IMG/VR virus record: IMGVR_UViG_3300049811_000196
Coordinates: 1 to 64,000 of that record
DNA length: 64,000 nucleotides
Direction: 5' to 3' (one strand)
From: a virus
Taxonomy: Duplodnaviria; Heunggongvirae; Uroviricota; Caudoviricetes
Shown here: in pieces, positions 4,412 through 58,890 of the stretch
How positions within the stretch are numbered: position 1 is the stretch's first letter
Layout: every line of letters begins with the position of its first letter
Notes under the pieces: generated by a model
Told to the model about the DNA's origin: nothing
The model's input: only the letters and a program-made list of their open reading frames with translations
The model's database searches: none
Translations under genes and position numbers: made by a program

Positions 4412-5040
4412 GTGGAGGTGTTGGGTTTCGACTTTTTTGGACTATCTCATCATCTTTTCAGATGTCGGACGCTCTTGATGGTTTTACGATAGAAGCGTCT
4501 ATCACCCATTAGTCTCTGCACCTTTTTCTTCCTACGAAACTTGGCTCAGGATTGTCTAAAATTAGATTTTCCCTGAATTCATCCGATTTTTCAATCAATA
4601 TTTCTATTGAAAGGGGCTCGATTTAACCCAAGTCTTGTCCGTTAACCAATAAATGGACTACACGTTTATTACAACATTGTTTCTCAATGTTCCGAAATAT
4701 TAGGTTTGATATTTGTGAGAACCCCACCTACAAACAACTTGGTCTCAGAATTATTTTAAACGAGCTCTGACCTGTCACTCGTATAACGGACTTCTGTTCC
4801 TGGGTTATATGTCCTAATCGACCCGAAGTAGAGCCCAACTTGGTTAGGCTACTACGTTAGAAGTTGCAAGAATACCTGCAGCTTCCATATTTGCGTAAAC
4901 GTTGCCGTTTGTTTTTACCATCGTAGTTTTAAGTCATAGATGATGTCTGACTACGTGCCCATTTATCAATCAAACGTCAATCAATTCCAGTCACCCCCAT
5001 TATGTCAAATAACTTATATATTAAATATAGAAAAAATTCC

Positions 5041-6497: not shown

Positions 6498-7967
6498 ATG
6501 GAGTTACATAAATTGTTGTTAGAGGAAACTGATGAGGACGTTGTATTAAACGCCCTTAAAGAGTTAATTAAGAATAGTGAGTGGGATGGTAAAGTCTATT
6601 TAGTTGGTGGTGCGGTTAGAGATGAAATAATGGGTAAGAAACCCAAGGATTTAGATTTTGTAGTAAATGGAGATCTCAATGCGGGGATTGATTTTTCTAT
6701 ATGGTTAGCAGAAAAACTTGGGAACCATAAGAAAGGTAGTAATCCCGTAGTATATCCAAGGTTTGGTACATCAAAACTTTCTCTTACAAACAATAATAAA
6801 GGTTTACCTGAAATTGAATTGGAATTTGTTGCTCCGAGAAGAGAAGAGTATGATGGTAAATCAAGAAAACCGAATGTTAGTGGTGGTGATTTAAAAGCGG
6901 AGGTCGAGAGGCGGGATCTAACAATTAATTCATTATTAAAAAATATTTCAAATAATGAAGTTTTGGATTTAAGTGGTTATGGGGTAAAAGATATTGAAAA
7001 CGGTATTATAAGAACTACTTCGGATCCTGATGTTATATTCAAGGAAGATCCTCTCAGGATGTTGAGAGCGGTCAGATTTGCGGTAAAATATGATTTTAAA
7101 TTCAGTACGGAGGTACTAAAGGGGATTAAAAAAAATGCTCATTTAATTAATAATATATCCTCTGAAAGAATTGCGGATGAATTAAACAAAATATTATTAT
7201 CACCAGATCCAAAGAAGGGTATACGATTATTAAAAGTAACTGATTTATTAAAATACGTTATTGAGGAATTTAATGATGCCATTGGTATGAAACAAAACCA
7301 GCACCATAAGGATGACGTTTTTATGCACACAATGGATGTTCTTTCAAAAACTCCTCCAGAGTTGAAAACAAGACTTATGGCGTTATTTCATGACATCGGT
7401 AAAGTTTTAACCAAAACCGTAACTCCAGAAGGGTCGGTTCATTTCTATAATCATGAGGAAGAAGGTGCGAAAATGGTTGAAACCATAATGAGAAGATTGA
7501 AATATCCAAATGAGTTAACCAAATCCGTGGTTTCTGGAGTTAGACATCACATGAGATTAAAACATGGTGGTGATGAAGGAAATGTTTCAGATAAGTCGTT
7601 AAGAAAATTTGTTGCGGCTGTGGGAGAAAATTTGGAAAATATACTGGATCTAATTCATGCGGATAACATATCACATTCAGAACATTCCTCAATGCCTAAT
7701 CAGATATCTAACATTAAAAAAAAGTTAGATACTTTGAATATGCAGTTGGATAAAAATAAACCGAAATTACCAATAAACGGTAATGATTTAATCGCAATCG
7801 GATTTAAACAGGGTCCAGAAATTAAAATTGCATTAAACGCTGTTGAAGAAGCATATTACGATGATCCAAATTTGGATAGAGAAACGGCAATAAACATTGC
7901 GAGATCAACTAAAGTCGATAAAGAGATAAATGAAATAAAAAATTTCATTTCTCGTATGATGGATTAG
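6498..7967 (+). CDS. cca: CCA-adding tRNA nucleotidyltransferase with HD domain
   Basis: LVGGAVRDEIMG...DLDFVV matches the Pol-beta head of CCA enzymes. HD motifs HHKDDVFMHT and LFHDIGK. Confidence 0.85.
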   Translation: MELHKLLLEETDEDVVLNALKELIKNSEWDGKVYLVGGAVRDEIMGKKPKDLDFVVNGDLNAGIDFSIWLAEKLGNHKKGSNPVVYPRFGTSKLSLTNNNKGLPEIELEFVAPRREEYDGKSRKPNVSGGDLKAEVERRDLTINSLLKNISNNEVLDLSGYGVKDIENGIIRTTSDPDVIFKEDPLRMLRAVRFAVKYDFKFSTEVLKGIKKNAHLINNISSERIADELNKILLSPDPKKGIRLLKVTDLLKYVIEEFNDAIGMKQNQHHKDDVFMHTMDVLSKTPPELKTRLMALFHDIGKVLTKTVTPEGSVHFYNHEEEGAKMVETIMRRLKYPNELTKSVVSGVRHHMRLKHGGDEGNVSDKSLRKFVAAVGENLENILDLIHADNISHSEHSSMPNQISNIKKKLDTLNMQLDKNKPKLPINGNDLIAIGFKQGPEIKIALNAVEEAYYDDPNLDRETAINIARSTKVDKEINEIKNFISRMMD

Positions 7968-9583: not shown

Positions 9584-10063
9584 TTATTGTTTGTCTTTAT
9601 TCATGTCTTCGTACTTTTTATTAAAGTAATCTGCCATGTTACTACCCATTTGATTTTGCATTAAAAGAATGTCATTACTTTTTTCAACTTGCATAGTGGA
9701 AATTCTTTTAATTGAGGAAATTTCTTTGGAGAGATCTTTAATTGCTTCGGTGTTTTCATTGACACTGGATAAAATGTTATTCTGTGTCTTCTCCATCTCA
9801 TAAAACCTGTCCATGAGGAAATATCCCATTCCTTTGACAGAATCGACATTTGAATTGATAATGGAAACAGTATCAGATGTCCTTTTAATGACCTCTGAAT
9901 TGACTTTAAACTCGCTTGGAGTACCGAAAATCGACTTGAAAATGAAGTAAATAATAAGACCTGCTGTACCTACAAAAATAAGATACTCACCTAATCTACT
10001 TGAAAAGGTGAGAAACGAAGATTTTTTATTTGTATCGGGGATCGGGGGTGTTAACTCATCCAT
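9584..10063 (-). CDS. membrane protein (one TM), possible holin/spanin-like lysis partner
   Basis: TM segment LIFVGTAGLIIYFIF. Adjacent to the peptidase. Confidence 0.4.
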   Translation of the reverse strand: MDELTPPIPDTNKKSSFLTFSSRLGEYLIFVGTAGLIIYFIFKSIFGTPSEFKVNSEVIKRTSDTVSIINSNVDSVKGMGYFLMDRFYEMEKTQNNILSSVNENTEAIKDLSKEISSIKRISTMQVEKSNDILLMQNQMGSNMADYFNKKYEDMNKDKQ

Positions 10064-11180
10064 ATATCGTTTTTATTAAAATATAATAAAAACCCCCGTA
10101 AAAAAAAAGTAAAAACCCTGAGATTACAAGTTTTTTTGGTTGACTTTAGGAACATTATTTGTTCTTTCCTTATCCACCCCCTTTTGAAGGGTATCAACCA
10201 GTGACGGTTAATTAGATTAACCACTCCTTAAGTCGTTAGTTACTCTCACGATACTCATTGCTCTTCGAGGATGCCTCCCCGATTAACCCTTGCGAGGTTA
10301 GAGAACTTTCTTGTAAATCATATTGGGATTGGGTCCCTTTATGGCTACGAACAACTCGTAACTATGTAGTCACCTTTCACCAACGACTGACAGACACTTT
10401 TCCATTGTGTTTAAATTTTCAATTTTTCAGGAAAAGAAAAGTTTAAATTTATGGTTTGTGGATTGTGAAGGTCGTGGTCTGTCATATGGCTTTCTTATCT
10501 TTTGAACAAGAAAATACCAAACAACCCTCTGAGGTATCCCTACCTCCATGTTTTTGGATTTCTTCATTATCAGACCTTTGGTAAGGTCTAATAAAGGATA
10601 ACAACAGCACCACCTGTACGAAATCTTATCTTCCCAACAGGATAAATCCTATTGGCTTAGATTTTAAGAACCCCATTACATTGAATAACGCAATAATGAA
10701 GTTGGATGACGACATTTTTTGCATGTATTCTACGAGTTACTCTTATTGGTGTTCCCACCTCAACCAAACGACCCACATCGCTTGGTCATCACATCCTTTC
10801 GCTACGGAGTTACCCTCACTACTCCGGACATAATGATGTCTCGACCGTATACTCGAGCTCGGTTACCCAAGCCGCAACTGATTAGAAACCTAAATCAAGT
10901 CACTTTATACCACTTTCATGGTTTATTTTTAATCTACCTTTCGGTAGATCACCACCTTACGGTGGATGGACTATATACAGCCCAATATTTTTTGTCAAAG
11001 AACTTTATCCGTTTCCGAATTAGAATGTAAAAGTACATAAAAAATCCGAAACAAGAAATATTTTTTAATTTTTAGTTATCCACACGTTATCAACAGTAGT
11101 GATAAATACTTTCGTTTTTCCAAAAAGAAACCCCCCAACAATTGTTGGGGGGATTTTCCTTTTATGACAAGAAAGAAAAT

Positions 11181-13043
11181 TTACTTTTTGGTTTGCTCTT
11201 CCTGAGCCGAATTGTCTTTTACAAGCCTCAGTAACTCCAACCCAATCAAACCATCAAGGGCGTTTGAACCACCGTTTTCTTTACCACCACTATTGATGAG
11301 GATTTCAGGGATAATCTTCACTCCATTCTTACCAATTTCTTGGGTGATCATGAACTTAGCGTAGTTGTCACCACCCATGGCAGCCGCTTGTTTCTTGTAC
11401 GCTTCGGCGGTTGCGTTACCAATACTTTCAATTTTCACCGCCTCTGCTTTACCAACCTGTTCGGTTTGGAAGGCTTCCGCGGTTGCTCTCAGTTTGGTAG
11501 CTTCGGCATCAGCCTTAGCACTCAATTCGATTGATTTGGCCCTACCTTCCGTTTCTTTAACGGTTGCTTCGGCTTTCCTTTCAGCGATGATAACCGATTG
11601 TTGAGCGGATACGATCTCACCCTGCATATCTGCCAAGGATTTCTCACTTTCATAAGATTGCCTTGTCTTTTGAGCCTCCCTTTGACGTTCAAAAGTTTTC
11701 TGTTCTTCCTGAGCGATTTTACGGTTGGTCAGGGTTTGCATCAATTCCGTTGGGGGAACGATGTCACCGATAAGGGTATCGACAGCGTGTACGTTATAGT
11801 CTTTTAGAACGTCAGATATCCTTGATTTGGCTGCGTCCTGACGTTCTTTACGTGTTTCCAAGAACGCGATGACATCGGAATCCTGAGCTGAGTTTCTGAA
11901 GTAGTTACCGATTGTTGGTTCAAGTACTTGGGACACCAAGTTCTGAATATTACCAAATCGAGCAATCACCTTCGGTCCTTCGGTTGCGGGAATATGGATG
12001 ATTTGTGAAACGTCAAGATTGAACGTAAATCCGTCTTTTGACCTTACCGTAATTGTATTAAGGTTTTTGTCAAGATTATGTGATTCCGTTCTTGCGTTTG
12101 CCCAATTCAATACGAGGTTAGTTGTTGGTACAACCTGTATTTTAGTTGTGTACGGGTTAATGGGGTATTTACCCGGATCCAACGGAGTTTCCCACACACC
12201 CTTTTGACCCACTTTAACAATGTTACCGTGTTTGAAATCTGAACCCGTAACATCAGTACCATCTTCACCAACATATGATACAACAACGCCAACGTTACCG
12301 ATGGGGATTTCTGTCATATCAACGATTTCAATCGTTACCGTCCAAGGATTTAAACTATATGTACCCGCTTGGATATATTGTGTCTGTAAACCCTTTTGTC
12401 CCCCAGCATCCAAGAATTTATCAAATTCCTGAAAGTTATTGTGACCATCAACGGGTTTACCAGCAATTGAATTTTGTGGTAGAGGTTCACCGTCCTGTGT
12501 GGTAATGACACCGACTTTACCGTCTTCAATTGTGGTTAAGTTAGTTAAAAAGACATCAAACAAAAGTTTATTGATACGATAAACACCGGGGTTCAAATAT
12601 TTTGTTTGTTTACCCTTTTGTCCACCGTTATTAATGAACAAACGACCATTTTGAAAATCATCACAAACAACACCCCTTGCCAAAATTCGACCCGTTGGTA
12701 AACTAACACCATCTTTGGCAACAACCAAACCAATTTTGTTATTGGGAATACTGACAAATGGTTCTTCTTTGATTTCATATTGCCAAACCCAAAATCCCCA
12801 ATATAAACCCGGTGATAGGGGATCGACCTGAAAACCAGCTTCACCATTTAAGGCAACAATTCGACCTTCGGGCAACTCTTTGTTTTTACCAAAAAGAACG
12901 AATTTTTTGGTTACCAAACCGATTTTATCTTCGGGGATGATAACCATACCAAAAAGAACCCTTAGTACCCATTTATAAAAAACGACACTAAGAACGGGTA
13001 TGAGAACCCACCAATAAGATAATAGCAAACCAACGATGTCCAT
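11181..13043 (-). CDS. SPFH/band-7 (flotillin-like) membrane protein
   Basis: N-terminal TM. C-terminal coiled-coil Ala/Glu/Lys-rich flotillin-type region. Confidence 0.65.
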   Translation of the reverse strand: MDIVGLLLSYWWVLIPVLSVVFYKWVLRVLFGMVIIPEDKIGLVTKKFVLFGKNKELPEGRIVALNGEAGFQVDPLSPGLYWGFWVWQYEIKEEPFVSIPNNKIGLVVAKDGVSLPTGRILARGVVCDDFQNGRLFINNGGQKGKQTKYLNPGVYRINKLLFDVFLTNLTTIEDGKVGVITTQDGEPLPQNSIAGKPVDGHNNFQEFDKFLDAGGQKGLQTQYIQAGTYSLNPWTVTIEIVDMTEIPIGNVGVVVSYVGEDGTDVTGSDFKHGNIVKVGQKGVWETPLDPGKYPINPYTTKIQVVPTTNLVLNWANARTESHNLDKNLNTITVRSKDGFTFNLDVSQIIHIPATEGPKVIARFGNIQNLVSQVLEPTIGNYFRNSAQDSDVIAFLETRKERQDAAKSRISDVLKDYNVHAVDTLIGDIVPPTELMQTLTNRKIAQEEQKTFERQREAQKTRQSYESEKSLADMQGEIVSAQQSVIIAERKAEATVKETEGRAKSIELSAKADAEATKLRATAEAFQTEQVGKAEAVKIESIGNATAEAYKKQAAAMGGDNYAKFMITQEIGKNGVKIIPEILINSGGKENGGSNALDGLIGLELLRLVKDNSAQEEQTKK

Positions 13044-13396: not shown

Positions 13397-13858
13397 TTAT
13401 AATCTCACTAAATGATTAGCCGCACATTGGGTCATTGCTCCATTGTGTTTATACCTCACATGGTAACCCATTCCTTCAACCATTCCTATCGCTTGTCTTA
13501 ACACCCTATTAGATTTAAATCTAATATCGGGGTTTAGATCAATATCGATATATTTTGGTTTTGGTAAACCATTATGTACAAGATAATCCGCGATTTCAAT
13601 TGACATCCACACTTCATTTAAAAGTCTGGTGTTCATGTCATATTCGATTTTGGTTTTTTGTCTTTTACATAAGACATGAGATCCCTTACCCTTTCTGTGA
13701 AGAGCAATAACAAAACCATATACAGTTTTTTCATTACTGTAGTTTTGTGAATCACCACCAATTAATATTTCTACATCATCATGTTTGTCGATATAATCTT
13801 TTATATAATCGACAAGATTTGTTATTGGTTTCCCAAATAACGTTGTGAAGTTTTCCAT
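13397..13858 (-). CDS. DUF458/YkuK-like (RNase H-fold) protein
   Basis: ILIGGDSQ...YGFVIALH pattern. Confidence 0.4.
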   Translation of the reverse strand: MENFTTLFGKPITNLVDYIKDYIDKHDDVEILIGGDSQNYSNEKTVYGFVIALHRKGKGSHVLCKRQKTKIEYDMNTRLLNEVWMSIEIADYLVHNGLPKPKYIDIDLNPDIRFKSNRVLRQAIGMVEGMGYHVRYKHNGAMTQCAANHLVRL

Positions 13859-15670: not shown

Positions 15671-15710
15671 CACAAAGGTTTCAATGTTTAACACATTTCA
15701 ATCAAAGAAC
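15671..15710. repeat. ~40-nt repeat, copy 1
   Basis: cacaaaggtttcaatgtttaac(a/c)(c/t)atttcaat(c/a)aaag shared with copy 2. Confidence 0.7.
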
Positions 15711-16276
15711 TATTTTAACCATTTTTTAATTGCTTTATTGCTAACACCGTATTTTCTACCTGTTGCGGAATATCCATTTTGAGATACTTCAGACATTAAG
15801 GTGTCAATATTAGGTCTTTCAACTTTTCTTTTTGACATGTAATTACATGTTTTACATTTTTTACCCCACTTTGATTTTTCACAACCACAATCTTCACATA
15901 GATATTTTTTGGGTTCTTTAATCATTATCCATCTATCTTTTTTTTCATCAAATTCCGAAATTTTATCTTTTATTTTTTCAAAAAATAGATCCGGCGAATG
16001 GTGTTCTCTATGACAATTTGAACAAAAAACATCACATTTTTCAAATTCTTCCAATATAAGTTTCATTGAAGTGTTGCTCAATGTTCTTTGATCTAATTGA
16101 AATTTTTTTGTTTTTGGATCTCGATGGTGAAAATCAAATGCCGCCAAATTTTTATCATATCCGCATTTTTGACATTTTCCTCCTCTTAATAAAATAAGAT
16201 GATACTTTCTTTTAAGTGATCTCATTACTTGGTAATCGTAGGTATTTCTTTGGATTTTCATACCAATAAATACCAA
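15710..16276 (-). CDS. HNH homing endonuclease with C-terminal HTH
   Basis: CQKCGY...FDFHHRDPKTK...CSNCHREHH. C-terminal GRKYGVSNKAIKKW. Confidence 0.8.
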   Translation of the reverse strand: MVFIGMKIQRNTYDYQVMRSLKRKYHLILLRGGKCQKCGYDKNLAAFDFHHRDPKTKKFQLDQRTLSNTSMKLILEEFEKCDVFCSNCHREHHSPDLFFEKIKDKISEFDEKKDRWIMIKEPKKYLCEDCGCEKSKWGKKCKTCNYMSKRKVERPNIDTLMSEVSQNGYSATGRKYGVSNKAIKKWLK

Positions 16277-32662: not shown

Positions 32663-32814
32663 ATATTCTTTAATTCTTTCAAAGAAACTAATACACTCTC
32701 AAGCCATTCAATAATATCAGGACAAGAAAACTCATTCTGTTTGTAATTGAATAACTCTTCTTCGGTAATACGTATCTGTTCATCTAATGTAATGAAGATA
32801 TACCTCCTTTTTGA

Positions 32815-37147: not shown

Positions 37148-37161
37148 ATATTATTTTTTTG

Positions 37162-37242
37162 TTGGCACGGAGGGATTTGAACCCACGTTTTCAACACCGC
37201 TACAAGTTCTCCATCTTATCAGGATGGGCTGAGTACGTGCCA
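37162..37242 (-). pseudogene. tRNA-Ile (GAT)-like gene without canonical D-arm
   Basis: Perfect anticodon arm CCATC-CTGATAA-GATGG and acceptor TGGCACG/CGTGCCA. Only 8 nt between acceptor and anticodon stem. 24 nt between anticodon arm and T-arm. Confidence 0.4.
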
Positions 37243-37276
37243 ATCTCCATTATGTCAAAGAACCAAAGTTCAAAAG

Positions 37277-37350
37277 TGGACACGGTGGGATTCGAACCCT
37301 ACGATAAGCCACTGGGTGGGGCCGGCAACCAACCACCGCATCGTGCCCAA
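37277..37350 (-). pseudogene. degenerate tRNA-like element
   Basis: Acceptor TGGGCAC/GTGTCCA and GGG-TTCGAAT-CCC. Other arms do not fold. Confidence 0.3.
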
Positions 37351-37419
37351 AATAATTTCGTGTCTGTAGAACCTATATATTTCTACACTTAGAGTTCTAA
37401 TGTAGGTTAGAACAACGTG

Positions 37420-37494
37420 TGGACCGAGTGGGTATCGAACCCACCTCACTCTCCTTGCAAGGGAGAATCGCCAATCCGTGGTACATGTCAGCCC
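37420..37494 (-). tRNA. tRNA-Ala (TGC)
   Basis: Acceptor GGGCTGA/TCGGTCC, including G-U pairs. Anticodon arm TCTCC-CTTGCAA-GGAGA. Weak D-arm. Confidence 0.65.
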
Positions 37495-37535: not shown

Positions 37536-37798
37536 TTACTTAAAGATCTATGTTTTCTTAAATCTTTTCTGTATAAACAGTTCGGAACAAGGCAATATCA
37601 TCCTGCTTCGCCCATTCACAACGAATAATAAATGACATTTTATGTTGGTACTGTTTCATTTGAAAAATTTAAGTTTTATTTCTTTTACAAAGATATATAT
37701 AAATATTGTAAAAACAAACAAAATTCAAAAAATATTTTTTTTGTGTGGATCATTCCGGGATCGAACCGGAGACATGGACATTTATAATTATAAAATTG

Positions 37799-37870
37799 TG
37801 ATTCCAGTGGGATTCGAACCCACGTAAATACTTTTAGAGAGTACTGTTTTAACCACTAAACTATGGAATC
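37799..37870 (-). tRNA. putative amber-reading tRNA, anticodon CTA
   Basis: GATTCCA-TA-GTTT-AGTGGTTA-AAAC-A-GTACT-CTCTAAA-AGTAT-TTAC-GTGGG-TTCGAAT-CCCAC-TGGAATC-A. All arms canonical, U33, A37. Confidence 0.7.
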
Positions 37871-38572: not shown

Positions 38573-38585
38573 TTTTTCAAAGAAC

Positions 38586-54448: not shown

Positions 54449-57433
54449 ATGGCTGATAAAAATTTAACAGTATTTCAAAGGTTAACTAAAATGTTTGGTT
54501 TTCCTGGTGAAGTTAAACAGGAAAAACAATCACCTAGATTTGAATTTAACAAAGATCAAATACTAAAAACAGATAGCATAGAAGATTATGAAAAAGCTCG
54601 TCTTCAAGCGCAGCAAACACAATACATTGTAGATAAGTGGGCAAAATTAGATCAATCTTTATATAATCAATCTGTATATTATGAACCAAACAGATTGGCG
54701 GCATATTATGATTACGAATCTATGGAGATGTGTATTTTGGGGGACACAAAAATAGCAACTCCTGATGGTTTTGTAACCATTAAAGAATTAGCAGATAGGG
54801 GGAGAGATTATGAATTTATAACATATGCATATGATCATAATCTTAAAAAAGTAGTTCCTGCTATAGCTAGAAATGCCCATTATACGAGAGATGACATGAC
54901 CTATAAGATTACTTTCGATGATGGTTCTCACATTATTGCGACAGAAACCCATAGATTTTTAAAAAGAGATGGTGTTTTTGAAGAACTACGAAATTTAAAG
55001 GTTGGTGACTCAATGATGCCGTTTTATAGAAAATCATTCTATAATAATCAAAATTATAATTGGGTCTATGTATGTAATTCAAAAGAAGGACATAACGGAT
55101 GGGTTCCTGAACATAATTTAATTGCGGAATGGTATTTTAAGAAGAAAATAAATAAAGAAGAAGAGGTTCACCATATTGATTTTAATGGTAAAAATAATCT
55201 ACCATCTAATTTGTTGATAATGGATAGATCTGAACACCGATCTTTTCACGCAAAGATAAATAATGAAAAATTATGGTCAAATCCAAAGTATAGATTATTA
55301 ATGTCGGAAGTCGCAAAAAGAAAGGGTAAATATAATTGGAATGGTAAGAGGAAGGGTAAAAATAATCCTTCGTACATCGATATTTCATTTAATGAAATTA
55401 TCGAGGTTTCAAAAATACATAGAACTCAAGAAAAAACTGCAAAACATTTAGGAGTGTCTGTTGCAAAACTACAAGATGAACTAAAATTAAATGGTTTTAA
55501 AAATTGGGATTTATTTTTGGATGTTTACGGTATTAAAAAATTAATTCCACAAACGGAAAATAGAGAATCAATAAATTTTAAACATGTTCCTTGGGATTTA
55601 ATTATTGAATCTGCTAAAAAATATAAATCAATACGCAAAACATCTGATTTTATTGGTATAAGTAGATCTAAATTAATGTCATCATTAAGAATGAACGGTT
55701 ATAAACGATGGGACACTTTTTTAGATGCATATGGAATAGAAAAGTCGAAAATAGGTAGAGATATAAAACATGATAAAATAACCATTAATCATAAAATAGT
55801 ATCTATCGAACCATATGGAGTATTCCCCGTTTATGATTTGACTGTTCCAGGGTATAAAAATTTCGCAACAGACACTATTTTTTCCCATAATACCCCCGAA
55901 ATATCCGCAGCTTTGGATATATACGCAGAAGAATCTACTGCGGTATCTGAAAAGGGGGAGATATTGACAATATTTTCTGAATCGGATAGGATTAAAGAGA
56001 TTTTAACGGATTTGTTTGTTAACAAATTAGACATAAATACAAATCTACAGATGTGGGCTAGGGGTATGTGTAAATACGGGGATAATTTTGTTTATTTAAA
56101 AATAGATCCGAAAGAAGGTATCGTTGGATGTCAACAACTTCCAAATATTGAAATAGAGAGGTGGGAAGGAACTGGAACAAAAACACCAACTCAAAATGAT
56201 ATCAAGTCTCCGGTTAGAGAATTGAGATTTAAATGGAATAATAAGGATTTGGAATTTCAGTCTTGGGAAATCGGTCATTTTAGACTTTTAGGTGACGATA
56301 GAAAACTTCCATATGGTACGTCAATGTTGGATAAAGTTAGAAGAATTTGGAAACAACTTCTTTTAGCTGAGGATGCTATGTTGATTTACAGAACCAGTAG
56401 AGCACCTGAACGTAGGGTCTTTAAAGTATTTGTTGGTAACATGGACGATAAAGATATTGAACCCTATATACAACGTATTGCCAATAAGTTTAAGAGAGAT
56501 CCTATTGCTGACCCAAAAAACGGTCAAGTTGATATGAGATATAATCAAATGGCTGTTGATCAGGATTACTTTATACCCGTAAGAGATCCGTCACAAACCA
56601 ATCCGATTGAAACTTTACCGGGTGCTCAGAACTTGGGAGAAATTGCGGACATAGAATATATTCAGAAAAAATTATTAACTGGATTAAGAATACCTAAAGC
56701 GTTTCTTGGATTTGAAGAAGTTGTGGGTGATGGTAAATCTTTGGCTTTAATGGATATCAGATTTGCGAGAACCATTAATAGAATACAAAAATCATTAATT
56801 CAAGAATTAAATAAGATTGCATTAATGCATCTTTATTTATTGGGTTTAGAAGATGAACTAGACAATTTTTCGTTATCCTTAACTAACCCATCCGCACAAT
56901 CCGATCTATTAAGAATAGAACAATGGAAAGAAAAAATTGCGTTATATAAAGACGCAACATCAGATCAATCCCAATTAGGTATTTTACCTGTTTCCCATAC
57001 TTGGGCAAAAAAGAATATTTTAGGAATGAGTGATGCTGAAGTTATTCTTGATTTACAACAACAAAGATTGGAAAGAGCAATGGGATTTGAGTTAACAAAT
57101 ACCCAAAACGTGATTAAAAGATCTGGTGTATTTGATGAGGTCGATTCGAGGTATGGTATACCAGAAGAAGAAAGAAAGAAATTAGAGGCTCAAAACTTAA
57201 ACGCCGATAACGATATGAACCCCGGCGGTGGATTAGATATGGGTGGCGGAGCACCACCTCCTCCGGCAGAGGGTGGAGGAGGAGAACCCCCCCTAAGTGA
57301 ATCCTTAAAAAAACATAAATTATTTACCTTAACCGAAGGAACAAACTTAGAAGACTTGTTTGATATGGAAAAGGCTCAACAGAATATTTATGAAATAGAA
57401 AACAAGATAAATAATATTTTAAATGATAAATAA
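54449..57433 (+). CDS. portal vertex protein (T4 gp20-like) containing an intein
   Basis: 994-aa ORF. Extein about 607 aa. Contains a Hint domain with HNH (see intein feature). Confidence 0.8.
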   Translation: MADKNLTVFQRLTKMFGFPGEVKQEKQSPRFEFNKDQILKTDSIEDYEKARLQAQQTQYIVDKWAKLDQSLYNQSVYYEPNRLAAYYDYESMEMCILGDTKIATPDGFVTIKELADRGRDYEFITYAYDHNLKKVVPAIARNAHYTRDDMTYKITFDDGSHIIATETHRFLKRDGVFEELRNLKVGDSMMPFYRKSFYNNQNYNWVYVCNSKEGHNGWVPEHNLIAEWYFKKKINKEEEVHHIDFNGKNNLPSNLLIMDRSEHRSFHAKINNEKLWSNPKYRLLMSEVAKRKGKYNWNGKRKGKNNPSYIDISFNEIIEVSKIHRTQEKTAKHLGVSVAKLQDELKLNGFKNWDLFLDVYGIKKLIPQTENRESINFKHVPWDLIIESAKKYKSIRKTSDFIGISRSKLMSSLRMNGYKRWDTFLDAYGIEKSKIGRDIKHDKITINHKIVSIEPYGVFPVYDLTVPGYKNFATDTIFSHNTPEISAALDIYAEESTAVSEKGEILTIFSESDRIKEILTDLFVNKLDINTNLQMWARGMCKYGDNFVYLKIDPKEGIVGCQQLPNIEIERWEGTGTKTPTQNDIKSPVRELRFKWNNKDLEFQSWEIGHFRLLGDDRKLPYGTSMLDKVRRIWKQLLLAEDAMLIYRTSRAPERRVFKVFVGNMDDKDIEPYIQRIANKFKRDPIADPKNGQVDMRYNQMAVDQDYFIPVRDPSQTNPIETLPGAQNLGEIADIEYIQKKLLTGLRIPKAFLGFEEVVGDGKSLALMDIRFARTINRIQKSLIQELNKIALMHLYLLGLEDELDNFSLSLTNPSAQSDLLRIEQWKEKIALYKDATSDQSQLGILPVSHTWAKKNILGMSDAEVILDLQQQRLERAMGFELTNTQNVIKRSGVFDEVDSRYGIPEEERKKLEAQNLNADNDMNPGGGLDMGGGAPPPPAEGGGGEPPLSESLKKHKLFTLTEGTNLEDLFDMEKAQQNIYEIENKINNILNDK
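54731..55891 (+). mobile_element. 387-aa intein with HNH endonuclease and two HTH modules
   Basis: Starts CILGDTKIATPDG (block A). TETHRF (block B). HNH EVHHIDFNGKNNLPSNLLIMDRSEHRSFH. HTH KTAKHLGVSVAKL and SDFIGISRSKL. Block F VYDLTVPGYKNFATD. Block G IFSHN followed by T. Confidence 0.8.
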
Positions 57434-58464: not shown

Positions 58465-58890
58465 ATGAAGACAGGAAAGTATATCCCTCTTGGAAATTAT
58501 AATAACATAAAAATTGGATTTGGTACAGTCGATTTTAAAGACCTTAAAACAATTTATTTAAAATTAAATTCATGGATAGAACCATCGAGTGATTGTGATG
58601 AGTTTAATCAGATAATTTCTAGAACAAGAAGAAAGATAAAGGAGATTGTGTATAAATTAGAACATCCCGATTTTAAACCACAAAGCATTGTTGATTTGGA
58701 TATCAGAACAAAAGGTATCAAACTAGATAAGAGATCATTCATGAATTTGGAGATTACTTTATATGTGGAAAATAAGTTTGACATAAAATCAAAGAACGTA
58801 AAATTAGATATCAAAAATCTTATTTACCAAATTATTGATGATGGTTTGTCGGATAAAACATTATTTAATTTTCACATATCTAAAAAATAG
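58465..58890 (+). CDS. putative prohead core protein
   Basis: 141 aa, same length as T4 gp68. Position only. Confidence 0.3.
   Translation: MKTGKYIPLGNYNNIKIGFGTVDFKDLKTIYLKLNSWIEPSSDCDEFNQIISRTRRKIKEIVYKLEHPDFKPQSIVDLDIRTKGIKLDKRSFMNLEITLYVENKFDIKSKNVKLDIKNLIYQIIDDGLSDKTLFNFHISKK

What the first reader, a model, noticed from the sequence alone, without database searches (positions are those of the whole stretch)
10064..11180. 1.1-kb ORF-free island with elevated GC between lysis-like genes and the flotillin gene
No credible ORF. Base composition is visibly richer in G and C than the flanking AT-rich coding DNA. It contains tight hairpins such as agacctttggtaaggtct. It could be a large structured ncRNA or a decayed insertion. 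T4-type tRNA regions are known to encode stable RNAs of unknown function.
Basis: seen in the sequence. Interest (0 to 1): 0.55.

Follow-up and report, generated by a model that had tools for sequence, protein, structure and literature searches.

The report
Full-length GOLLD RNA gene in phage
The "ORF-free island" is the gene for a GOLLD RNA, a known ~0.9-kb phage non-coding RNA that self-assembles into a hollow RNA cage; the unreported part is that it sits behind the same anti-termination signal (boxA) that bacteria use for ribosomal RNA.

Summary
The island at 10064-11180 is real: it is exactly the gap between an unannotated 159-aa ORF and an SPFH/flotillin-like gene. It has no credible ORF under any stop-codon reassignment, and its GC content is only mildly raised. 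It encodes, on the minus strand, a full-length GOLLD RNA. Rfam RF02032 matches 10529-10115 at 326 bits (gathering score 150, E 1e-92, model 1-416). The ~450 nt upstream (10983-10530), which Rfam does not model, is the GOLLD 5' "cap" domain. It is homologous to the cryo-EM-solved env-38 GOLLD and to 13 distinct viral-contig homologues. In that domain 97.5% of cells pair, and 57 of 113 pairs show compensatory changes. By homology the RNA most likely forms an env-38-type RNA-only nanocage; its biological function is unknown in the literature. One unexpected addition is a leader between promoter and RNA with a hairpin followed by GTTCTTTGA. I show this is the box found in Bacteroidota 16S rRNA leaders (46/103 exact, about 0.005 expected). 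It matches E. coli rrn boxA at 10 of 12 positions. The same box precedes phage tRNA and tmRNA genes. Verdict: a new member of a known family, with a plausibly new expression feature.

The parts
11131..11152 (.). Bidirectional intrinsic-terminator hairpin CCCCCCAACAATTGTTGGGGGG. It ends the upstream SPFH/flotillin-like gene and separates that gene from the GOLLD unit.
   Evidence: Terminator scan, 9-bp stem with 7 GC pairs and a T-run on the minus strand. Inverted repeat I7.
11028..11058 (-). Candidate promoter (inferred): TTTC(11058-11055)-N19-TACTTTTA(11035-11028). It lies at the position of the relatives' conserved TTGACA-N17-TAACTTTG, whose -10 part fits the Bacteroidota TAnnTTTG -7 motif.
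   Evidence: Upstream regions of 14 homologues compared; sequence read. The window copy is a weak match and the transcription start is not shown.
11007..11020 (-). Leader hairpin AUUCG-GAAA-CGGAU, in a boxB-like position just 5' of boxA. It is homologous in position to UUCGGA-AACG-UCCGAA in relatives.
   Evidence: Sequence and the upstream comparison. The same order, hairpin then boxA, is seen in many Bacteroidota rRNA leaders.
10995..11003 (-). boxA-like element GTTCTTTGA (GUUCUUUGACAA in RNA), 11 nt 5' of the first GOLLD helix.
   Evidence: 8 copies in the window against 1.14 expected, 7 of them on the RNA-gene strand. Conserved upstream of GOLLD in 13 viral contigs and in LR745206.1. The exact 9-mer is in 46/103 Bacteroidota 16S leaders and 15/46 spacers, against 0.012/kb/strand background. 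It matches E. coli rrn boxA GCUCUUUAACAA at 10/12 positions (PMC2724277).
10968..10983 (-). GOLLD helix P1, GGGCU-GUAUAU-AGUCC. This is the first structured element of the RNA, and the env-38 cryo-EM construct starts 2 nt before the equivalent hairpin.
   Evidence: Covariation GC/UA/AU/CG at the closing pair and CG/UA at the inner pair; alignment to env-38. It overlaps, and so argues against, the sigma-70-like -10 TATAGT.
10932..10965 (-). Two extra hairpins, CCACC-GUAA-GGUGG (10965-10952) and AUCUACC-GAAA-GGUAGAU (10949-10932). They are inserted between P1 and the next helix, are absent from env-38 and 12 homologues, and are shared in position with L015.
   Evidence: Alignment A1 columns 138-174. 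L015 has different sequences with the same pairing. This is the only indel of 10 nt or more against env-38.
10530..10983 (-). GOLLD 5' domain, the 'cap' domain of the nanocage. The Rfam model does not cover it.
   Evidence: nhmmer homology in 17 loci, E 1e-33 to 6e-47. 113 pairs in 19 helices, 97.5% of cells paired against 37-43% when partners are slid, 57 pairs with double changes against 8-20, and 0/500 shuffles reach the observed value. 63% identity to the env-38 5' domain.
10572..10589 (-). It is a covarying helix of the 5' domain.
   Evidence: helix 18, columns 526-551.
10115..10529 (-). GOLLD 3' domain, the universally conserved half, including the pseudoknot helix.
   Evidence: Rfam RF02032, 326.1 bits, GA 150, E 1.1e-92, model 1-416/416, not truncated. 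Compensatory changes in relatives.
10385..10465 (-). A/U-rich variable linker inside the 3' domain. The equivalent loop is disordered and faces the cage interior in env-38. It carries no tRNA here.
   Evidence: Rfam alignment, unpaired model positions ~64-140. No tRNA called. Linker role from PMC12286853.
10096..10114 (-). U-rich tail after the last GOLLD hairpin (UUUUUACUUUUUUUUUACG). It may be a weak 3' end, and no canonical terminator lies before the next ORF's start codon at 10063.
   Evidence: Sequence. No minus-strand terminator was called in 10064-10115. In four relatives a tRNA-Met follows within about 0-15 nt instead.

Best explanation
The island is a stable-RNA transcription unit on the minus strand of a distant T4-like phage, and it encodes one full-length GOLLD RNA of about 890 nt (about 10985 to 10096).

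Identity (shown). The 3' half is a textbook match to the Rfam GOLLD model. The 5' half is the env-38-type GOLLD 5' domain.

Assembly (inferred by homology). Every env-38 helix has a counterpart and there is no deletion of 10 nt or more. The RNA therefore most likely folds into separate 5' 'cap' and 3' 'ring' domains. It would then self-assemble, without protein, into a closed dihedral nanocage of the env-38 (14-mer) type, with the A/U-rich linker pointing inward.

Expression (inferred). Transcription starts from a weak Bacteroidota-like promoter about 40 nt upstream of the RNA. It runs through a leader holding a hairpin followed by GUUCUUUGACAA. This sequence is the rRNA-leader boxA of Bacteroidota-type hosts. 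The most likely role is to recruit NusB/NusE and the other Nus factors, as in rRNA operons. That would protect the long untranslated, highly structured transcript from Rho termination and pausing, and might assist co-transcriptional folding. No strong terminator follows, so read-through into the downstream lysis-like genes is possible.

Function. The biological role of GOLLD cages is not known in the literature.
For: Identity:
- RF02032 matches at 326.1 bits against a gathering score of 150, E 1e-92, full model, minus strand 10529-10115.
- A profile built from 14 full-length homologues matches window 11002-10096 once only.
- The 5' half is conserved in 17 viral-contig loci and in the 635-kb phage LR745206.1.
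- RNAalifold finds 217 pairs, 113 with compensatory changes.
- Controls on the 5' domain alone: 97.5% paired against about 40% when partners are slid, 57 against 8-20 double-change pairs, 0/500 shuffles.
- MFE z-score is -5.96.

Homology to the solved structure:
- The env-38 sequence (PMC12286853 Suppl. Table 4) matches the profile end to end at E 3e-105. Identity is 63% in the 5' domain and 62% in the 3' domain.
- The only large indel is a 36-nt window-specific insertion.
- Loops that form env-38 bridges are retained: the GAAA tetraloop at 10921-10910, the GGGAUA/AUCC loop pair at 10544-10533 and 10710-10701, and the CGCAA loop at 10297-10287 (contact list).

Context:
- The window has 27 tRNAs on the same strand, a T4-type Gp23/Gp20/terminase set and a CCA-adding enzyme.
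- GOLLDs are described as phage/prophage RNAs near tRNA islands (PMC12286853).

Leader:
- The box is enriched 8 against 1.1 expected.
- It is conserved upstream of all homologous GOLLDs and of phage tmRNA and tRNA genes.
- It is identical to the box in 46/103 Bacteroidota 16S leaders and 15/46 spacers.
- It matches E. coli rrn boxA at 10/12 positions, with the rrn-type order of hairpin then boxA (PMC2724277; PMC8632103).
Against: - No expression data were available. The promoter in the window is a weak match and the 5' and 3' ends are inferred.
- Cage formation and stoichiometry are extrapolated from a homologue about 62-70% identical. Oligomer number is known to change with small helix differences: 12-mer for S. 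agalactiae against 14-mer for env-38 (PMC12990946). The window RNA also has two extra 5' hairpins of unknown placement.
- One env-38 symmetric kissing loop (L21a) could not be shown to be palindromic here.
- boxA function rests on sequence identity and position only. The box also occurs in front of some protein-coding ORFs.
- An unrelated GOLLD phage, Caulobacter Ccr34, has no such 9-mer within 4 kb. The leader is therefore not a general GOLLD feature.
Confidence: 0.9

Rival explanations
1. The island is a decayed insertion or a frameshifted pseudogene.
For: There is a 103-aa open frame on the plus strand (10719..11030). tblastn of it finds weak matches in homologous loci.
Against: Those matches are fragmentary and jump between frames. 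The frame is not kept open in homologues, where the longest runs are 33-149 codons in varying frames. Variable columns are spread evenly over codon positions: 39/76, 38/75 and 34/75. Substitutions instead follow base-pairing. The region has a full-length Rfam RNA match.
Confidence: 0.01
2. Only 10115-10529 is GOLLD, and the remaining ~450 nt (10530-10983) is an unrelated spacer or a second, separate RNA.
For: The Rfam model stops at 10529. The literature calls the GOLLD 5' region 'less conserved'.
Against: The 5' part is collinear with, and 63% identical to, residues ~1-420 of the single-chain env-38 GOLLD. It co-occurs with the 3' half at fixed spacing in all 13 distinct full-length homologues. 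No promoter or terminator lies between the halves.
Confidence: 0.03
3. GTTCTTTGA is not an antitermination boxA in the phage. It could be a phage-specific promoter element or an RNA-processing/5'-end-defining site that merely resembles, or was copied with, host stable-RNA leaders.
For: The box lies only 0-20 nt from the mature 5' ends of tRNA, tmRNA and GOLLD. That spacing also fits a -10-type promoter or a cleavage signal. Some copies precede protein ORFs. In the window the box overlaps a TTGACA that the sigma-70 scan paired with TATAGT.
Against: In five relatives a good TAnnTTTG promoter lies 12-18 nt upstream of the box in front of tmRNA, so the box is transcribed there. The TATAGT partner lies inside covarying helix P1, which is part of the solved RNA. 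The identical 9-mer with similar flanks sits in the 16S leaders and 16S-23S spacers of Bacteroidota, the two canonical boxA locations.
Confidence: 0.3
4. The RNA is a GOLLD homologue that no longer assembles into a cage. It might be monomeric or form another oligomer, or it might act as a tRNA-linked precursor or scaffold.
For: It has two extra 5' hairpins and no adjacent or embedded tRNA, unlike several relatives. Stoichiometry is known to be plastic in this family.
Against: All helices and several bridge-forming loops are retained. Purifying selection on pairing is strong.
Confidence: 0.15

Closest known systems
GOLLD RNA, env-38 (Rfam RF02032; cryo-EM PDB 9MEE, Kretsch et al. 2025, PMC12286853)
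   Same: Same family and same sub-class. The two are collinear over both domains, with a profile match of E 3e-105 and about 62-63% identity per domain. Both start at the same P1 hairpin. Both have the A/U-rich linker, the GAAA, GGGAUA/AUCC and CGCAA loops, and a phage/metagenomic origin near tRNA genes.
   Different: The window RNA has two additional hairpins after P1 (10965-10932) and is about 890 nt against 833 nt. It lies next to lysis-like and SPFH genes rather than directly beside a tRNA-Met. Cage formation was not tested here.
Streptococcus agalactiae GOLLD (12-mer; PDB 9L0R) and other Lactobacillales prophage GOLLDs
   Same: Same Rfam family and the same conserved 3' domain.
   Different: Sag GOLLD lacks P9, P11a-c and P21b and forms a dodecamer (PMC12990946). 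The window RNA has no comparable deletion relative to env-38.
Caulobacter phage Ccr34 (phiCbK-like) GOLLD
   Same: A GOLLD in a large lytic phage, inside a tRNA/tmRNA cluster.
   Different: Ccr34 scores only 165 bits and carries tRNA-Gly embedded in the linker. It has no GTTCTTTGA-type box within 4 kb.
rRNA-operon nut-like antitermination leader (boxB-boxA-boxC; NusA/B/E/G, S4, SuhB)
   Same: A hairpin followed by a boxA-like 9-12-mer in the leader of a long, untranslated, highly structured RNA. The 9-mer is identical to the one in Bacteroidota 16S leaders and spacers, and it matches E. coli boxA at 10/12 positions.
   Different: It is located in a phage, in front of GOLLD, tRNA and tmRNA genes rather than rRNA. 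boxC was not identified, and factor binding and antitermination were not tested.
ROOL RNA (Rfam; phage/prophage nanocage RNA)
   Same: Same kind of genomic niche (phages, tRNA islands) and the same type of RNA-only cage (PMC12286853).
   Different: ROOL has an unrelated sequence and fold. No ROOL match appeared in the window at the gathering score, or in 9900-11400 at E up to 10.
Small stable RNAs of the phage T4 tRNA region (own knowledge)
   Same: Non-coding stable RNAs encoded alongside tRNA genes in a T4-type phage.
   Different: From my own knowledge, the T4 species are small, on the order of 100-150 nt. The RNA here is about 890 nt and belongs to GOLLD. No sequence comparison with the T4 RNAs was made.

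Membership tests
GOLLD RNA (Rfam RF02032) | Covariance-model score at or above the curated gathering score, over the whole model | tested here: met
   326.1 bits against GA 150, E 1.1e-92, model 1-416/416, not truncated.
GOLLD RNA (Rfam RF02032) | Conserved 3'-domain helices, including the long-range pseudoknot-bracket helix, maintained by compensatory change | tested here: met
   The Rfam alignment marks only 4 non-canonical pairs, none in the helix. The 102 predicted pairs of the 3' domain include many compensatory changes across the 14 sequences.
GOLLD RNA (Rfam RF02032) | A ~400-nt structured 5' domain contiguous with the 3' domain (P1-P13 of the published consensus) | tested here: met
   Homology to env-38 residues ~1-420. 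19 helices and 113 pairs, 97.5% paired, 57 pairs with double changes, 0/500 shuffles.
GOLLD RNA (Rfam RF02032) | Total length around or above 800 nt, with an internal variable A/U-rich linker | tested here: met
   About 890 nt from P1 (10983) to the U-tail (10096). Linker at about 10465-10385.
GOLLD RNA (Rfam RF02032) | Encoded in a phage or prophage, typically near tRNA genes | tested here: met
   T4-type Gp23, Gp20 and terminase. 27 tRNAs on the same strand, the nearest 2.9 kb away.
GOLLD RNA (Rfam RF02032) | RNA-only homo-oligomeric nanocage (14-mer for env-38) | not testable with these tools
   Only indirect support: all env-38 helices and several bridge loops are retained. Exact residue mapping was not possible because the env-38 text as read is 816 nt rather than 833 nt.
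GOLLD RNA (Rfam RF02032) | Expression rising during phage lysis | not testable with these tools
   No transcript data. The gene lies directly upstream of lysis-like genes with no terminator between them, which is suggestive only.
rrn-type boxA antitermination leader | Sequence matches the boxA used in rRNA leaders and spacers of the host clade | tested here: met
   Exact GTTCTTTGA in 46/103 Bacteroidota 16S leaders, plus 34 with one mismatch, and in 15/46 spacers. Background is 0.012/kb/strand. 10/12 match to E. coli GCUCUUUAACAA.
rrn-type boxA antitermination leader | Lies in the transcribed leader, downstream of the promoter and upstream of the structured RNA | tested here: inconclusive
   Clear in relatives, where the order is TTGACA-N17-TAACTTTG or TAtATTTG promoter, then box, then RNA. 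In the window the promoter match is weak and no transcription start is mapped.
rrn-type boxA antitermination leader | boxB-like hairpin 5' of boxA (rrn order) | tested here: met
   Hairpin 11020-11007, 3 nt upstream of the box, with a positional homologue in relatives. The literature notes that boxB is dispensable in rrn.
rrn-type boxA antitermination leader | boxC element 3' of boxA | not tested
   No consensus for the relevant hosts was at hand.
rrn-type boxA antitermination leader | Binds NusB-NusE and confers resistance to Rho-dependent termination | not testable with these tools
   Requires biochemistry or genetics.

The most novel reading that the evidence does not exclude
In this clade of large phages, probably infecting Bacteroidota, GOLLD is expressed as an 'honorary rRNA', and the phage tRNA and tmRNA genes are expressed the same way. 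Each unit carries the host's rRNA-operon boxA, often with a boxB-like hairpin. The phage would thereby borrow the Nus-factor antitermination/RNA-chaperone complex to make long, untranslated, elaborately folded RNAs. This would give the first mechanistic handle on how GOLLD cages are produced. It would also link GOLLD to the ribosome-biogenesis transcription machinery, including possible competition for NusB, S10 and S4. I found no paper linking GOLLD, or phage tRNA or tmRNA genes, to boxA in the held library.
Probability: 0.5. Interest if true: 0.6.

Novelty: new member of a known kind. Interest (0 to 1): 0.4.

Why it matters
As an annotation, this converts an unexplained 1.1-kb gap into a named RNA gene and its control region. 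It also extends the env-38-type, full-length GOLLD class to a distant T4-like phage with a 27-tRNA array. GOLLD is one of very few natural RNAs known to build a protein-free cage, yet its function is unknown. The set of 14 diverged full-length sequences gives covariation support for the 5' domain that Rfam does not model. That set could seed a full-length model. The boxA leader, if functional, is a testable clue. It predicts Nus-factor dependence of GOLLD, tRNA and tmRNA expression in these phages, and it points to Rho evasion and co-transcriptional chaperoning as requirements for making such RNAs.

Tried and rejected
1. Sigma-70 promoter TTGACA-17-TATAGT (10998-10970). Rejected as the GOLLD promoter because TATAGT lies inside helix P1, which covaries and is part of the solved env-38 RNA.

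2. Coding alternatives. The plus-strand 103-aa ORF and stop-codon reassignment were both checked, prompted by a suppressor tRNA-CTA in the window. Neither gives a credible gene.

3. Flotillin-gene synteny as a source of empty-site comparators. 21 viral loci encode a 60-73% identical SPFH protein. None has GOLLD and none shares the other neighbouring genes, so they say nothing about insertion.

4. Deposited phages. There is only one weak DNA match, LR745206.1, an unannotated 635-kb phage. It does carry a full GOLLD with the same leader box.

5. Residue-by-residue mapping of the cryo-EM inter-subunit contacts. Abandoned because the env-38 sequence recovered from the PDF is 816 nt, not 833 nt. 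Only motif-level checks were made. The L21a palindromic kissing loop could not be confirmed.

6. Generality of the boxA leader. Caulobacter phage Ccr34 GOLLD has no such box.

7. Literature. Weinberg 2009 (PMC4140389) and Morgado 2020 (PMC7549688) are not held. Exact-string searches for the box only turned up the Mycoplasma PCR primer GTTCTTTGAAAACTGAAT. From my own knowledge that primer targets the 16S-23S spacer, but the paper read does not say so.

8. Other Rfam families in 9900-11400 at E up to 10. Only sub-threshold noise appeared, clustered on the terminator hairpin.
Full report
OBSERVATION. The interval 10064-11180 is exactly the gap between two minus-strand ORFs, 9584..10063 (159 aa) and 11181..13043 (620 aa). 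The downstream neighbours are an unannotated 159-aa protein, an NlpC/P60 peptidase and a protein with a peptidoglycan-binding domain that matches endolysin PHROGs. The upstream neighbour is an SPFH/Band-7 (flotillin-like) protein. Inside the gap the longest ORF is 103 aa, on the plus strand. Re-reading TAG or TGA as sense raises the longest open stretch only to 122 or 116 codons. The GC claim is weak. The island is 0.368 GC against a window mean of 0.331 (sd 0.034), 14% of equal-sized windows are as rich, and the adjacent SPFH gene is richer at 0.418. The quoted hairpin is at 10572-10589.

WHAT IT IS. Rfam finds a complete GOLLD RNA (RF02032) on the minus strand at 10529-10115. The score is 326.1 bits against a gathering score of 150, E 1e-92, covering model positions 1-416 of 416. 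The Rfam model represents only the conserved 3' half of GOLLD. [quoted passage not shown] I therefore asked what the other ~650 nt of the island is.

A scan of viral contigs with a conserved core motif returned 20 loci. By nhmmer, 17 of them are homologous to both 10095-10529 and 10530-10970. None is homologous to 10971-11180. Thirteen distinct full-length homologues are 64-69% identical to the window and were aligned as A1. A profile built from A1 matches the window once, at 11002-10096. The consensus fold has 217 pairs, 113 of them with compensatory double changes.

I then tested the 5' domain alone, which has 113 pairs in 19 helices. 97.5% of cells pair, against 37-43% when partners are slid by 1-3 columns. 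57 pairs show double changes, against 8-20 when slid. None of 500 shuffles reaches the observed values. The whole 890-nt RNA folds with an MFE z-score of -5.96.

Finally, I recovered the sequence of env-38, the GOLLD solved by cryo-EM, from Supplementary Table 4 of PMC12286853. It matches the profile end to end at E 3e-105. Identity to the window is 63% in the 5' domain and 62% in the 3' domain. The env-38 construct begins 2 nt before the hairpin equivalent to window 10983-10968. The only indel of 10 nt or more is a 36-nt window-specific insertion. In the multiple alignment this insertion is two extra hairpins at 10965-10932. L015 has hairpins at the same position with different sequence but the same pairing. 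The island is therefore one full-length, env-38-class GOLLD gene plus its control region.

RIVALS. The pseudogene or small-ORF reading fails. The 103-aa frame is not kept open in homologues, tblastn matches are short and shift frame, and variable columns show no third-position excess: 39/76, 38/75 and 34/75. The reading in which only the 3' half is GOLLD fails on collinearity with the single-chain env-38 RNA and on fixed co-occurrence of the two halves. The 21 viral loci that encode a related SPFH protein have no GOLLD. They also share no other neighbouring gene with the window, so they give no information about insertion or loss.

HOW IT MOST LIKELY WORKS. Shown elsewhere: env-38 GOLLD forms a closed D7 14-mer nanocage 380 Å across, without protein. 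The 5' domains form the caps, the 3' domains form the rings, and the disordered linker lies inside. Stoichiometry depends on helix content, and S. agalactiae GOLLD, which lacks P9, P11a-c and P21b, forms a 12-mer (PMC12990946).

Inferred here: the window RNA has a counterpart for every env-38 helix. It also retains the GAAA tetraloop (10921-10910), the complementary GGGAUA and AUCC loops (10544-10533 and 10710-10701) and the CGCAA loop (10297-10287), which correspond to inter-subunit bridges listed for env-38. An env-38-type cage is therefore the most likely product. The effect of the two extra 5' hairpins is unknown. I could not map contacts residue by residue, because the PDF-derived env-38 text is 816 nt rather than 833 nt. 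The biological function of GOLLD remains unknown. Published ideas include encapsulating or storing tRNAs and interacting with ribosomes, and expression is reported to rise at lysis. Here the gene sits immediately upstream of lysis-like genes with no predicted terminator in between. Co-transcription with them is possible but not shown.

THE LEADER. The sigma-70-like promoter found by the scan (TTGACA-17-TATAGT, 10998-10970) cannot be the GOLLD promoter. Its -10 lies within helix P1, which covaries (GC/UA/AU/CG at the closing pair) and is part of the solved RNA.

Comparing upstream regions shows that the relatives share a TTGACA-N17-TAACTTTG promoter, and TAACTTTG fits the Bacteroidota TAnnTTTG -7 motif. 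Downstream of it comes a hairpin and then an invariant GTTCTTTGA. The window has the same order: a weak promoter-like TTTC-N19-TACTTTTA (11058-11028), the hairpin AUUCG-GAAA-CGGAU (11020-11007), and GTTCTTTGA (11003-10995), with P1 following 11 nt later.

The 9-mer occurs 8 times in the window against 1.14 expected, and 0 of 100 shuffles reach that count. Seven copies are on the RNA-gene strand. They include sites abutting tRNA-Ile and about 115 nt upstream of tRNA-Leu, and a relaxed match lies 14 nt upstream of tRNA-Cys. In relatives the box sits between a TAtATTTG promoter and the 5' end of phage tmRNA genes in five loci (called by ARAGORN in L011), in front of tRNA-Gln in L010, and about 30 nt after a tRNA 3' end in LR745206.1.

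From memory this resembled the rRNA-operon boxA, so I tested it directly. I fetched 120 Bacteroidota-type 16S 5' ends with their flanks.
- 46 of 103 usable leaders carry the exact 9-mer on the sense strand 47-262 nt upstream of 16S.
- 34 more carry it with one mismatch.
- 15 of 46 16S-23S spacers also carry it.
- The background is 10 hits in 403 kb counting both strands, which predicts about 0.005 per leader.
- The flanking bases also agree: host GTTCTTTGAaaatattgaa against phage GTTCTTTGAaatattgaa.

E. coli rrn boxA is UGCUCUUUA followed by ACAAUUUA (PMC2724277), and the window's GUUCUUUGACAA matches GCUCUUUAACAA at 10 of 12 positions. rRNA leaders use the order boxB hairpin then boxA. The boxA-nucleated complex (NusA/B/E/G, S4, SuhB) suppresses Rho termination and acts as a co-transcriptional RNA chaperone (PMC8632103).

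The best reading is that the phage places its long untranslated RNAs behind a host-type boxA. This rests on sequence and position only. A promoter or processing role for the box is not excluded, and I give that rival about 0.3. The feature is not general to GOLLD. Caulobacter phage Ccr34's GOLLD scores 165 bits, has tRNA-Gly embedded in its linker, and has no such 9-mer within 4 kb. I found no paper in the held library linking GOLLD or phage tRNA/tmRNA genes to boxA.

CONTEXT. The window comes from a distant T4-like myovirus. It has a Gp23 capsid protein, a Gp20 portal with an intein, and a T4-type terminase. The nearest cultured relatives by portal protein infect Microcystis, Flavobacterium and Rhodothermus, at 33-44% identity. 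A Bacteroidota host is plausible, given the promoter motif in relatives, the boxA identity and the Flavobacterium-phage relatives. It is not shown, because the same boxA core also occurs in the Mollicutes-like and Clostridia-labelled loci among the hits.

VERDICT. The RNA is a new member of the known GOLLD family, of the env-38 class, with two extra 5' hairpins. A specialist would not be surprised by a GOLLD in a tRNA-rich phage. The rRNA-type boxA leader shared with phage tRNA and tmRNA genes is the one element that may be new and is directly testable.

Noticed in passing
window 15702-15710, 21820-21828, 30323-30331, 32677-32686, 37255-37263, 38577-38585, 58789-58797 (all minus strand); 16083-16091 (plus strand): Further copies of the boxA-like GTTCTTTGA. 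Several follow terminator-like hairpins and precede tRNA genes (tRNA-Leu, tRNA-Cys, tRNA-Ile). This suggests the phage's tRNA array is split into several boxA-led transcription units. Some copies precede protein ORFs.
   Followed up: partly
L002:847, L005 (minus strand, box at 2900), L006 (minus strand, box at 1508), L011:6495-6896, L020:7865; L163:2268-2586: Relatives encode phage tmRNA genes with a TAtATTTG promoter, then GTTCTTTGA, then the GGGG... 5' end. ARAGORN calls one at L011 6509-6896. Caulobacter phage Ccr34 has a permuted tmRNA about 500 nt from its GOLLD.
   Followed up: partly
window 4432-4635 (-): Group I intron match (RF00028, 79 bits, E 2e-18). The host gene was not identified.
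   Followed up: no
window 37798-37870 (-): A tRNA with anticodon CTA, labelled tRNA-Pyl by ARAGORN, with an Rfam tRNA score of 73 bits. It is a likely amber-suppressor tRNA. TAG read-through did not create an ORF in the island, but the phage's own stop-codon usage was not examined.
   Followed up: partly
window 54449-57433 (+): The T4-like portal protein (Gp20) is interrupted by an intein (PF14890, residues ~109-481).
   Followed up: no
window 6498-7967 (+): A CCA-adding enzyme / poly(A) polymerase family protein with an HD domain is encoded about 2 kb from the GOLLD gene, on the opposite strand. This fits a phage that invests heavily in stable-RNA maturation.
   Followed up: no
window ~37264-37330 and 37161-37257, 37419-37494 (-): A tRNA-like 3' half (GGTTCGAATCCCACC...) lies just upstream of the boxA at 37255 and is not called by ARAGORN. 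The 97-nt 'tRNA-Ile' and the tRNA-Ala(tgc) that ARAGORN calls are absent from the Rfam gathering-threshold list. These may be intron-containing or mis-delimited tRNAs.
   Followed up: no
window 10044-10049 and 10092-10097: On the minus-strand RNA, GGGGGU (10097-10092) is complementary to ACCCCC (10049-10044). The two bracket the AUG (10063-10061) of the 159-aa ORF that follows GOLLD. This could be a structure around that gene's start site, or it could be chance.
   Followed up: no
window 13397-13858 (-); L010:13203-13640; L018:13000-13440: An RNase H-like protein (PF04308) next to tRNA-Ser in the window has 31% identical homologues next to the tRNA arrays of two GOLLD-bearing relatives. It is the only neighbouring protein shared with them.
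   Followed up: no
L002:2371-2444, L007:2394-2467, L011:8941-9014, L017:952-1026: In four relatives a tRNA-Met starts within about 0-15 nt of the GOLLD 3' end or overlaps its last bases. This implies co-transcription, with tRNA processing defining the GOLLD 3' end there. The window copy lacks this tRNA.
   Followed up: partly
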